The translations under genes and the position numbers were made by a program. The notes beneath the pieces were generated by a model. The model worked only from the letters and a program-made list of their open reading frames with translations, did no database searches and was not told the DNA's origin. DNA of 64,000 nt from positions 32,001-96,000 of the forward strand of contig JBHLJY010000007.1 in the NCBI GenBank assembly GCA_048887225.1, written 5' to 3'. Positions 28,251 to 30,041 of the stretch are shown piece by piece. Numbering within the stretch: the first letter of the stretch is position 1; every line of letters starts with the position of its first letter. The stretch comes from Candidatus Hodarchaeota archaeon. GTDB lineage: Archaea; Asgardarchaeota; Lokiarchaeia; Sigyniarchaeales; SOKP01.

Positions 28251-28640
28251 TTATTTGATCTTAAATATTTTGGTGTTCAATCCATTCCTTGCGTACAAAA
28301 TTTCTTCAGTAATAATAACTTTACCAACTTTATTTACCTTATTTGGCATTTCAAGATTTTCAATAACTATAATCAATTCATCTGTTTTCGGATTATAAAC
28401 CAAATCGCCTTTTTCAACATCTTTGATAGATTTTGGATTTATACCTTCTCTTAAACCCAAACCAGGAAGCGTCCAATATTTCTTCGATCCAAAACTAAAA
28501 CGTCCTCTTAGTACAAATGGCATCTTATCAAGTATTGCATCAGCAGAAATCGGAGCAAAAATACGGTCAATATAACCGTTTAAAGGTGTTATCCCGAAAA
28601 TTTCAATCTTGATAGGGATATCTCCACCTGATTCTGACAT
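28251..28640 (-). CDS. Cyclophilin-like fold protein (DUF369/TM1367 type)
   Basis: APISADAILDKMPF, VEKGDLVYNP, VNKVGKV. Confidence 0.75.
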   Translation of the reverse strand: MSESGGDIPIKIEIFGITPLNGYIDRIFAPISADAILDKMPFVLRGRFSFGSKKYWTLPGLGLREGINPKSIKDVEKGDLVYNPKTDELIIVIENLEMPNKVNKVGKVIITEEILYARNGLNTKIFKIK

Positions 28641-28766
28641 ATTCTATAAATAAAGTAAATAAATATTTATATTATTTCAAAAAAGTAAAATTTTTAAATG
28701 TTTTATTTTAGCGAGGAATTTTGTATAATAGGAAGATTTAAATAACTAAAAAAAGATACTATATGT

Positions 28767-29208
28767 GGACAATAGAAGATATGCAATGGTTAAAAAACGT
28801 AAACACAGTCTGAGCTGTTGAGCTGTATTACGAATATTTTTAATCGGTTCTTAATTCTCGACAATTTTTTATTAATAACCTTAGCACATATTAACAGAAA
28901 AAATACTTATATATTCCTTTATTACTCTTGTACAAAAGTACATTTTAATAAAGAATTACACAAAATTAACTAAATACGTTCCTTATAACTTTAAAGATTA
29001 GAGACAAAGCAACTTTTCTACTTTGATCTCTTGTCGATTTAAATAGTTATTTCTAATACCCGAGACAATTAAACCATAAAAATCGTTCTTATGAAAAAAC
29101 AAAAATAGAAGCTTTGATTTCGTAGGATAATTGTCAGATCTTAAAAAAATAACGATCTAAATTCCTTCGAAACAATAATTCTTTAAATTATCGGAGCTTC
29201 TATTGTCC
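28767..29208 (-). ncRNA. Candidate large structured non-coding RNA of unknown family (~442 nt)
   Basis: Perfect 12-bp terminal inverted repeat plus at least 8 nested helices; most mismatches become G-U pairs on the minus strand; T7 tract just downstream on the minus strand. Confidence 0.6.
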
Positions 29209-30041
29209 TCTTTTTTTCTCCTTTTTAAAAGATTATTAAATATATTTAAATCCGTTTCATAATCAATATCGTGAAAATTGATTTTTTTTTCTATTTCCAT
29301 GGCAATTATTTCACTTCCATTTCTTATCATATGATTTATAATTTCTCTAATTGTATTTACCGAAAATTTATTCTCAAATTTTTTAATCCGTTTAATAAAA
29401 TCAAACGAAAATATAAAAACAGGTATTATTTGTTTTATAAAATCTGAATCAGAAAAGTCCTGTAATTTATATTTTTTAATTTGTCTTATAAAGCATTTAG
29501 AGTCTTTCTTCTCTATATCAGCGATTGAAATTGTTTTAGATTCTTGTTGTTCTTTTAGAGCGCTAATTATCATTTCTCTGTAAAAGATTAAAGGATATTT
29601 TTGAATGAGATTAAAATTATTAACAATAATGCTAAAAATTTGATTTAGTAGATTAAATTGAAAAATTGTGTCTCCAGGAATCACAATATATATAGAATTT
29701 CTCTTAAATACATTTTTACTTGTAGTAATGGTTAAAAATGAATATAAGGGTCCTAATTTATATTGATTGCCAGAATCTATTATTATCAGTTTTTCTTCAA
29801 AATTAGAATTATAATTCTTTATTGAGGAAACACATTCATCAATCTTCATTCCCAAATGGCCTTTTACTATAGCGATTCGATGAATTCCTAATTCAATTAA
29901 ACTAGAAATCGTATGCTCTAAAATTGAAATATTATTTAATTCTTTAATTTTTATCAATGGTTTTGGGATGTTCTTGGTAATTTCTTTAAGTCTGATTCCT
30001 TCTCCAGCACATAGAATTATTGCTATAATTTTATTTTTCAA
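29157..30041 (-). CDS. NTP-transferase family protein (divergent)
   Basis: IILCAGEGIRL...IPKPLI, PGD, DID; the last ~17 codons overlap the structured element. Confidence 0.75.
   Translation of the reverse strand: MKNKIIAIILCAGEGIRLKEITKNIPKPLIKIKELNNISILEHTISSLIELGIHRIAIVKGHLGMKIDECVSSIKNYNSNFEEKLIIIDSGNQYKLGPLYSFLTITTSKNVFKRNSIYIVIPGDTIFQFNLLNQIFSIIVNNFNLIQKYPLIFYREMIISALKEQQESKTISIADIEKKDSKCFIRQIKKYKLQDFSDSDFIKQIIPVFIFSFDFIKRIKKFENKFSVNTIREIINHMIRNGSEIIAMEIEKKINFHDIDYETDLNIFNNLLKRRKKEDNRSSDNLKNYCFEGI

What the first reader, a model, noticed from the sequence alone, without database searches (positions are those of the whole stretch)
28767..29208. Unannotated ~440-nt multi-helix element: candidate new large structured ncRNA on the minus strand
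Seen in sequence (plus-strand coordinates): the ends pair perfectly, GGACAATAGAAG 28767-78 with CTTCTATTGTCC 29197-208. Nested helices: 28788-96/28837-45, 28798-802/28828-32, 28858-64/29031-37, 28876-82/28994-29000, 28886-92/28973-79, 28907-13/28957-63, 28915-24/28946-55, 28929-33/28938-42, 29001-12/29018-30, 29064-71/29128-35, 29136-40/29154-58, 29173-80/29186-93. In at least six helices the plus-strand A.C mismatches become G-U wobbles on the minus strand (e.g. UUGUGUA/UAUAUAA, UAAUCUU/AAGGUUA, ACGUAUU/AAUAUGU). One helix (28788-96) favours the plus strand. A T7 tract follows about 12 nt downstream on the minus strand, and a TATA-like TTTAATAA lies at about -25 to -32. It lacks RNase P and SRP hallmark motifs. 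Inference: a functional RNA folded from the minus strand and missed because it is as AT-rich as the genome. Alternatives are a large cis-regulatory leader for the downstream cyclophilin-like gene, or a MITE (no target-site duplication seen).
Basis: partly seen in the sequence, partly recalled or inferred. Interest (0 to 1): 0.85.

Follow-up and report, generated by a model that had tools for sequence, protein, structure and literature searches.

The report
New large Lokiarchaeal RNA gene

Summary
Window 28767-29208 is a real, conserved, structured non-coding RNA gene.

Homologues with paired ends GGAYAAUAG...CUAUURUCC, 358-632 nt long in the 57 genome-derived copies, lie at the same site next to a 129-aa gene. 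They occur in at least 10 of the 13 genera of one Promethearchaeota (Lokiarchaeia) family and in 71 metagenome contigs. There is one copy per genome and no conserved ORF. No Rfam family matches in the window or in 13 diverse homologues. RNase P and SRP RNAs are encoded elsewhere in this genome.

The strand is most likely plus, not minus. In 98 homologues with flanks:
- a forward TTTAWATA box is present in 95, usually 22-23 nt before the first G;
- a run of five or more T follows the last C in 95.

In the conserved helices, G.U pairs outnumber A.C mismatches 194 to 39 when read on the plus strand. Helix P2 has two near-invariant tandem U.G pairs.

It is not a MITE and not a leader of the neighbouring gene, from which it is transcribed divergently.

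Function is unknown; a stable RNP scaffold RNA is my best guess. This scan had already found the same family in two other genomes. No expression data could be tested here.

The parts
28767..29208 (+). The RNA gene (442 nt), read on the plus strand: it starts GGACAAUAGAAG and ends CUUCUAUUGUCC.
   Evidence: The ends are conserved in 99 unique homologues. The start lies 22 nt after the TATA box, and an oligo-T run begins 3 nt after the end.
28737..28744 (+). TATA box TTTAAATA, preceded by the purine-rich AGGAAGA (28730-28736). A 22-nt spacer separates it from G28767.
   Evidence: A forward-oriented TTTAWATA is present in 95 of 98 homologues, against 9 of 98 for the reverse orientation. Of 102 boxes counted, 84 lie 22-23 nt before the first G, and the start is T|G in 85 of 98. 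The spacing matches that of this genome's own RNase P and SRP RNA genes.
29211..29226 (+). Oligo-T terminator: T7 at 29211-29217 and T5 at 29222-29226, beginning 3 nt after the closing helix.
   Evidence: A run of T>=5 lies within 25 nt of the 3' end in 95 of 98 homologues, and T>=7 in 88. The run is kept where the upstream ORF ends earlier and the tract is non-coding (L110, L114).
28767..28777 (+). P1, 5' strand of the closing helix. It pairs with 29198-29208.
   Evidence: 98.1% of cells are paired in 44 homologues, with 3 covarying pairs. In 57 genome-derived copies, position 4 is C-G 43, U.G 9, U-A 5. In 99 copies, position 10 is U-A 57, G-C 22, A-U 10.
29198..29208 (+). P1, 3' strand.
28782..28789 (+). 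Near-invariant 5' motif, UGCAUUGG in the family and UGCAAUGG in this copy. It forms the 5' side of a possible hairpin Ha.
   Evidence: Alignments. GGAYARTAG-N3-16-GCATTGG matches exactly in 75 of 134 other family genomes, against 2 control hits.
28865..28870 (+). Internal T6 tract at +99 to +104. Relatives carry T6-T12 here.
   Evidence: A T>=6 tract lies between +73 and +109 of the plus RNA in 39 of 48 homologues. Its role is unexplained: an early terminator, or a U-rich protein site.
29032..29035 (+). Helix D/E, 5' strand (UGUC). It pairs with GACA at 29064-29067 and closes a hairpin that carries a U-rich loop in relatives.
   Evidence: 92.5% of cells are paired. The last pair alternates U.G (20) with C-G (18) on the plus strand.
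29064..29067 (+). Helix D/E, 3' strand (GACA).
29111..29118 (+). P2, 5' strand GCUUUGAU. It pairs with AUCGGAGC at 29190-29197.
   Evidence: Read on the plus strand this is a continuous helix with two tandem U.G pairs, present in 42 and 37 of 44 homologues. On the minus strand these would be C.A/C.A mismatches.
29190..29197 (+). P2, 3' strand AUCGGAGC.
29119..29171 (+). P3 hairpin: UUCG/CGAA at 29119-22/29168-71 and GGA/UCC at 29125-27/29163-65. An inner hairpin at 29136-40/29154-58 is specific to this copy.
   Evidence: The covariance-model alignment of 48 sense copies shows G-C/A-U exchanges. 77% of cells are paired on the MAFFT alignment.
29103..29112 (+). Internal copy of the 5' end (AAUAGAAGC). 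It can pair with the 3' end in place of P1, giving 15 continuous base pairs together with P2 in this copy.
   Evidence: (inverted repeat I6). Support is weaker than for P1: at the distinguishing pair, 30 of 48 copies pair, against 55 of 57 in P1.
29157..30041 (-). Convergent neighbour: a 294-aa NTP-transferase-like ORF whose last 52 nt overlap the 3' end of the RNA gene.
   Evidence: Pfam PF00483, E 1.3e-9. In several other genera the stop codon is the TAG inside GGACAAUAG.
28251..28640 (-). Divergent neighbour: a 129-aa gene with weak cyclophilin-like matches and its own TATA box at about 28664-28671.
   Evidence: PF18050, E 0.017; a weak PF04126 hit in a relative. The gene is found in 77 of 81 family genomes.

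Best explanation
Window 28767-29208 is a stand-alone gene for a roughly 440-nt structured non-coding RNA, transcribed from the plus strand. An archaeal TATA box at 28737-28744 places the start at G28767. The two ends pair in an 11-bp closing helix (P1), and transcription ends at the T7/T5 run just after it. The 3' module holds helices P2 and P3, and the 5' part carries a near-invariant UGCAUUGG-type motif. The centre is variable in sequence and length. The gene is single-copy and confined, among the genomes searched, to one family of Promethearchaeota (Lokiarchaeia). There it always sits head-to-head with a 129-aa cyclophilin-like gene.

Shown here: conservation, synteny, the transcription signals, base-pair conservation with covariation, the strand asymmetry, and the absence of coding potential or any Rfam relative.

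Inferred, at about even odds: it acts in trans as a stable RNA, probably the scaffold of a ribonucleoprotein. On this reading the invariant helices and single-stranded motifs (UGCAUUGG, the U tract, three GGAGC sites) serve as protein or RNA contact points.
For: Conservation:
- nhmmer finds the element upstream of the 129-aa gene in loci from several genera.
- 57 genome copies (358-632 nt) and 71 metagenome contigs were collected.
- The exact 5' motif occurs in 75 of 134 other family genomes, against 2 control hits.
- There is one copy per genome.

Structure (44 homologues):
- 84.9% of cells are paired, against 37-49% when the partners are slid.
- The covariation score is 0.133 against 0.083 for shuffles (0 of 500 reach it).
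- P1 position 10 is U-A 57, G-C 22, A-U 10.

Strand:
- A forward TTTAWATA box is present in 95 of 98 homologues; 84 of 102 boxes counted lie 22-23 nt from the first G.
- The start is T|G in 85 of 98, and a run of T>=5 follows the 3' end in 95 of 98.
- The T tract is kept where it is non-coding.
- G.U-type pairs outnumber A.C-type 194 to 39 on a strand-neutral alignment, and 16 to 2 in P1.
- P2 has near-invariant tandem U.G pairs.
- The plus strand has the lower MFE in 39 of 48 copies and the more negative z-score in 10 of 12.

Non-coding: no ORF is conserved in position or length on either strand.

Not a known RNA: Rfam finds nothing in the element or in 13 homologue loci. RNase P and SRP RNAs are encoded elsewhere in this genome.
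Against: - No expression data were available, so the transcript, its ends and its strand are inferred from sequence alone.
- A conserved internal T6-T12 tract near +100 could end many transcripts early. However, this genome's own SRP RNA gene also holds an internal T6.
- In the window copy, six central helices carry G.U pairs on the minus strand against one on plus, and its MFE is lower on minus.
- Covariation outside P1 is modest, because most conserved helices hardly vary.
- The central third could not be aligned reliably.
- R-scape was not run.
- The 5' module alone does not fold better than shuffles in most copies.
- Nothing tested bears on what the RNA does.
Confidence: 0.75

Rival explanations
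1. One reading: the functional RNA is the minus strand, either as its own transcript or as a structured 3' UTR of the NTP-transferase mRNA.
For: In the window copy, six helices have G.U pairs on minus where plus has A.C. The minus strand has the lower MFE (-103.5 against -83.4 kcal/mol) and a z-score of -4.74. The upstream ORF runs into the element on that strand. Hairpin Ha has one more pair on minus.
Against: - No promoter is conserved upstream on minus, and a T>=5 run follows the minus-sense end in only 15 of 98 homologues.
- Family-wide wobble counts favour plus 194 to 39.
- P1 position 4 would be a C.A mismatch in 9 of 57 copies.
- P2 would carry a conserved double C.A mismatch.
- Plus has the lower MFE in 39 of 48 copies.
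- The element and its flanking T/A tract persist where the upstream ORF ends earlier (L110, L114).
Confidence: 0.08
2. The main product is a short plus-strand RNA of about 100 nt that ends at the conserved internal T tract. The full-length form arises only by regulated read-through, as in an attenuator, or the downstream 340 nt have a separate role.
For: A T6-T12 tract lies between +73 and +109 in 39 of 48 homologues, including diverged genera. The first roughly 30 nt are the most conserved part of the RNA. Oligo-T tracts are the archaeal termination signal (established knowledge; PMC8716108 appeared in the search but was not read).
Against: P1 joins nucleotide 1 to the far 3' end and covaries at three positions. 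The 3' module P2/P3 and a second terminator are conserved in 95 of 98 homologues. The SRP RNA gene of the same genome contains an internal T6. The 5' module alone is not unusually stable.
Confidence: 0.1
3. It acts in cis on a neighbour: as an antisense RNA against the 3' end of the convergent NTP-transferase mRNA, or by promoter interference with the divergent 129-aa gene.
For: The overlap with the NTP-transferase ORF is 52 nt here and 9 nt or more in relatives. The head-to-head pairing with the 129-aa gene holds in every genus examined, including one where that protein is only about 42% identical.
Against: A simple antisense or interference role would not need 360-630 nt of conserved helices. 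The overlap varies, and in L110 and L114 the upstream ORF stops before the RNA gene. The RNA does not overlap the 129-aa transcript, which has its own proximal TATA box.
Confidence: 0.05
4. It is a DNA-level element: a MITE, an invertible segment flanked by inverted repeats, or a replication origin.
For: There are perfect 12-bp terminal inverted repeats, and both strands fold well.
Against: There is one copy per genome. Every homologue recovered shows one orientation relative to the neighbouring 129-aa gene. Internal helices are conserved with strand-asymmetric wobble pairs. No recombinase, transposase or orc1/cdc6 gene is adjacent. GC skew merely follows gene strand.
Confidence: 0.02

Closest known systems
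Archaeal RNase P RNA (Rfam RF00373)
   Same: Both are stand-alone archaeal ncRNA genes of several hundred nt. Each has a TATA box about 23 nt before the 5' end, a closing helix between the 5' and 3' ends, and a multi-helix fold.
   Different: There is no Rfam match even at E<=10, and no CR-I or CR-V sequences are apparent. P2 closes directly after P3 rather than near the 3' end. The genome already has a canonical RNase P RNA (131.8 bits) on another contig.
Archaeal SRP (7S) RNA (Rfam RF01857)
   Same: Both have paired ends, end in oligo-T, are single-copy, and tolerate an internal T tract.
   Different: There is no match to the model. An SRP RNA candidate lies elsewhere (C14:2802-3039, 64.9 bits). 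This RNA is confined to one family rather than being universal.
Large ornate bacterial ncRNAs of unknown or newly found function (OLE, ROOL, GOLLD)
   Same: All are large (over 350 nt), have many helices, are lineage-restricted, were found by comparative genomics, and have no obvious function from sequence.
   Different: Those RNAs are bacterial or phage-borne. None of their Rfam models matches. This RNA has an archaeal promoter and terminator and a fixed chromosomal site.
The same RNA family in two other genomes of this scan (e1-5498200 and e1-5498211; e1-5425599)
   Same: The 554-nt copy (locus L107) and the 522-nt copy (locus L112) are in my homologue set. They share the ends, promoter and terminator.
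   Different: Those copies belong to more diverged lineages, and their interiors do not align with the window copy.

Membership tests
RNase P RNA, archaeal (RF00373) | Scores above the Rfam gathering threshold; has the P4 pseudoknot with CR-I and CR-V | tested here: not met
   No hit at E<=10 in the element on either strand, and none in 13 homologue loci. The genome's RNase P RNA is at C25:24540-24861.
SRP RNA, archaeal (RF01857) | Matches the SRP covariance model (helices 5, 6 and 8) | tested here: not met
   No hit in the element. The SRP candidate lies at C14:2802-3039.
MITE or other dispersed repeat | Many dispersed copies per genome | tested here: not met
   BLAST finds one full-length copy and only chance fragments of 38 nt or less. 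The covariance model R1 gives one significant hit.
MITE or other dispersed repeat | Target-site duplication flanking the terminal inverted repeats | tested here: not met
   The flanks are ...TATATGT and TCTTTTT..., with no direct repeat. The flanks are instead a conserved promoter and terminator.
5' leader or riboswitch of the downstream gene | Lies on the same strand as the regulated ORF, between its promoter and the ORF | tested here: not met
   The transcription signals point away from the 129-aa gene, which has its own TATA box about 25-30 nt before its ATG.
Stand-alone archaeal ncRNA gene (generic class) | BRE/TATA promoter about 22-27 nt before a purine start, and an oligo-T terminator | tested here: met
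   A forward TATA box in 95 of 98 homologues, usually 22-23 nt before the first G; a T|G start in 85 of 98; a T>=5 run after the end in 95 of 98.
Stand-alone archaeal ncRNA gene (generic class) | Conserved secondary structure with compensatory changes, and no ORF | tested here: met
   for structure; for the absence of ORFs.
Stand-alone archaeal ncRNA gene (generic class) | A discrete transcript is detected | not testable with these tools
   No RNA-seq data could be reached. Look-ups of spurious ORFs returned only genomic contigs.
BHB-processed or circularised archaeal RNA | A bulge-helix-bulge motif at the base of the closing helix | tested here: not met
   P1 is a continuous 10-12 bp helix without 3-nt bulges in every copy inspected. 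This rests on inspection only.

The most novel reading that the evidence does not exclude
This RNA is the core of a ribonucleoprotein machine not yet described and specific to one lineage of Asgard archaea. It could, for example, be a catalytic or guide RNA whose invariant UGCAUUGG and GGAGC elements recognise a cellular RNA. That would add a new class of large functional RNA to the group of archaea closest to eukaryotes.
Probability: 0.2. Interest if true: 0.9.

Novelty: categorically new. Interest (0 to 1): 0.72.

Why it matters
Large, conserved, highly structured RNAs are rare. Most that are understood (rRNA, RNase P, SRP, group I and II introns, and recently ROOL, GOLLD and OLE) turned out to be ribozymes or cores of large RNPs.

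Beyond the universal ones, I know of no large structured RNA described for Asgard archaea, the closest known prokaryotic relatives of eukaryotes, and my paper searches found none. This locus gives about 170 natural sequence variants, a defined promoter and defined ends. That is enough to start structure determination, pull-downs and metatranscriptome mapping.

It is also a methods lesson. A single copy can point to the wrong strand, and only the family-wide signals settled it.

Tried and rejected
- RNase P or SRP identity: rejected.
- MITE: rejected.
- Small protein gene: no ORF is conserved on either strand.
- Replication origin or inverton: skew follows gene strand, the orientation is fixed, and no recombinase is nearby.
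- Homologues outside the family: the covariance model of the 3' module found nothing in 26 genomes of six other families, though only about 147 candidates per genome were scored. The site upstream of 129-aa orthologues there holds a protein gene. Two motif hits outside the family (G030, G098) lack a 3' partner.
- Second motif hits in G042, G048, G058 and G118 are chance matches with no 3' partner.
It served only to name the phylum, from two record titles.
- RNAalifold on family-wide MAFFT alignments gave little or nothing, because the centre misaligns.
- A strand test using GU-free RNAalifold helices within subgroups was uninformative, 23 against 30.
- A tRNA-based promoter matrix was abandoned: aragorn found only 18 tRNA genes, and their upstream regions are heterogeneous.
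- Complementarity of the invariant motif to rRNA could not be tested, because this MAG has no rRNA genes assembled.
- Transcript evidence through spurious-ORF look-ups gave nothing or only genomic contigs.
- Three literature searches found no description of such an RNA.

Full report
**What is in the window.** The 516-nt gap between a 294-aa NTP-transferase-like ORF (29157-30041, minus) and a 129-aa ORF (28251-28640, minus) holds the element 28767-29208. The ends form 12 perfect base pairs, and that 12-mer occurs nowhere else in the window. The sequence folds better than dinucleotide shuffles on both strands: z = -4.74 on minus and -3.91 on plus. Rfam 15 finds nothing in the window at gathering thresholds. 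In the 1-kb region at E<=10 it finds only a chance snoRNA hit outside the element.

**Not a repeat, not RNase P, not SRP.** BLAST of the element against the 3.27-Mb genome returns itself plus chance fragments. A covariance model of its 3' module returns one significant hit, on the plus strand. The genome's RNase P RNA (131.8 bits) and an SRP RNA candidate (64.9 bits) lie on other contigs.

**Conservation.** The 129-aa gene is present in 77 of 81 sampled genomes of the same family. Upstream of it, a 500-650 nt ORF-free stretch recurs. nhmmer detects the element there in loci from several genera.
- Even where the interior no longer aligns, the ends persist. Read on the window's plus strand they are GGAYAAUAG, then 3-16 nt, then (U)GCAUUGG at the start, and CUAUURUCC at the finish.
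- The exact 5' motif occurs in 75 of 134 other genomes of the family, almost always once, against 2 hits for a reversed control.
- The four extra hits I checked lack a 3' partner.
- One metagenome scan gave 71 more contigs.
- In all I collected 99 unique full-length copies. The 57 genome-derived ones span 358-632 nt.
- Two record titles name the organisms as Promethearchaeota MAGs.
- In six other families of the class, the model found nothing (0 of 26 genomes; few candidates were scored). There the site upstream of the 129-aa orthologue is occupied by a protein gene.
- No ORF is conserved in position or length on either strand.
- Rfam finds nothing in 13 diverse homologue loci.

**Strand.** The evidence falls into four groups.
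- *Transcription signals (98 homologues with flanks).* A forward-oriented TTTAWATA lies upstream on the plus strand in 95; the reverse orientation is seen in 9. Of 102 boxes counted, 84 lie 22-23 nt before the first G. That spacing matches this genome's RNase P and SRP RNA genes. The start dinucleotide is T|G in 85. A run of T>=5 follows within 25 nt of the last C in 95, and T>=7 in 88.
- *The terminator is not just coding sequence.* On the minus strand this T run encodes the Lys-rich tail of the NTP-transferase. It persists where that ORF stops earlier and the tract is non-coding (L110, L114).
A T>=5 run follows the minus-sense end in only 15 of 98 homologues.
- *Wobble asymmetry.* On a MAFFT alignment of 44 full-length copies, which knows nothing of strand, the conserved helices show 194 G.U-type cells against 39 A.C-type cells when read on plus. 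P1 position 4 runs C-G (43), U.G (9), U-A (5), with no C.A. P2 (GCUUUGAU/AUCGGAGC) has two near-invariant tandem U.G pairs that would be C.A/C.A mismatches on minus. The last pair of helix D/E alternates U.G with C-G.
- *Folding energies.* MFE is lower on plus in 39 of 48 copies. RNAalifold energy is lower on plus in all five subgroups. The z-score is more negative on plus in 10 of 12 representatives, from only 22 shuffles each.

The window copy and its closest relative are exceptions: their variable centre has six G.U pairs on minus. That is why reading one sequence pointed the wrong way.

**Structure.** On alignment A7, 44 pairs in six helices are 84.9% paired, against 37-49% when the 3' partners are slid by 1-3 columns. 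The covariation score is 0.133 against 0.083 for shuffles, and 0 of 500 shuffles reach it.
- P1 is 98% paired and covaries at positions 4, 10 and 11. In 99 copies position 10 is U-A 57, G-C 22, A-U 10, G.U or U.G 8, A.C 2.
- P2, P3 and D/E are conserved, with a few exchanges.
- The central third differs between genera in length and sequence and could not be aligned.
- An internal copy of the 5' end (AAUAG-NN-GC, window 29103-29112) can pair with the 3' end instead of P1. P1 is better supported: at the distinguishing pair, 55 of 57 copies pair in P1 against 30 of 48 in the alternative. A conformational switch is possible but not shown.
- A T6-T12 tract lies between +73 and +109 in 39 of 48 homologues and is unexplained. 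It may end some transcripts early, or it may be a U-rich protein site. The SRP RNA gene of this genome also carries an internal T6, so such tracts do not preclude a full-length RNA here.

**Function.** Nothing tested here bears directly on function. The RNA gene is always head-to-head with the 129-aa gene, which has weak cyclophilin-like matches (PF18050 E 0.017; PF04126 weak). The whole neighbourhood is syntenic across the family, however, so this linkage may be inherited rather than functional. The size, the closing helix, the near-invariant helices and motifs, and the variable centre all resemble RNP scaffold RNAs, and that is my best guess at about even odds.

**Earlier findings of this scan.** Two of my homologues, L107 (554 nt) and L112 (522 nt), are the subjects of earlier reports (e1-5498200 and e1-5498211; e1-5425599). 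Those reports reached the same general conclusion. Two of them say the RNA is abundant in environmental RNA libraries. I could not test that here: look-ups through spurious ORFs gave nothing or only genomic contigs. I therefore do not count it as evidence.

**Verdict.** It matches no described family. Its biological role is open.

Noticed in passing
window 29157-29226: The 3' end of the NTP-transferase ORF is written on the complement of the RNA gene's closing helix and terminator. The oligo-T run encodes its Lys-rich tail. In several other genera the stop codon is the TAG inside GGA-CAA-TAG. In this genus the ORF is in another frame and reads 52 nt into the RNA gene, and the differences between relatives there are almost all non-synonymous.
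   Followed up: partly
window 29136-29158: A hairpin found in this copy and its closest relative (AGAUC...GAUCU) carries a T7 run in its loop on the minus strand, about 10 nt after the NTP-transferase stop codon. It could serve as that mRNA's terminator.
   Followed up: no
G000:C14:2802-3039 (locus L033): The genome's only SRP RNA candidate scores 64.9 bits, below the Rfam gathering score of 96.5. It covers model positions 67-307 only and contains an internal T6. It is either a diverged SRP RNA or one with an unusual 5' domain.
   Followed up: no
whole genome G000: No SSU or LSU rRNA gene is found in this MAG, which is estimated 98% complete. aragorn finds only 18 tRNA genes, so many tRNA genes are probably intron-bearing or unassembled.
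   Followed up: no
window 28660-28680: A second conserved TATA-like box (minus-sense AAUAUAAAUAU) lies about 25-35 nt before the ATG of the 129-aa gene. The 125-nt spacer therefore holds two back-to-back promoters.
   Followed up: partly
locus L067 (genome G051): Here the RNA gene lies about 550 nt further from the 129-aa gene than usual. The spacer holds an extra 107-aa ORF on the opposite strand, which suggests an insertion between the two promoters.
   Followed up: no
loci L246, L248, L250 (genus g8): In this genus the RNA is 622-632 nt, about 40% longer than the window copy, yet it has the same ends, promoter spacing and terminator. The extra length lies in the interior.
   Followed up: no
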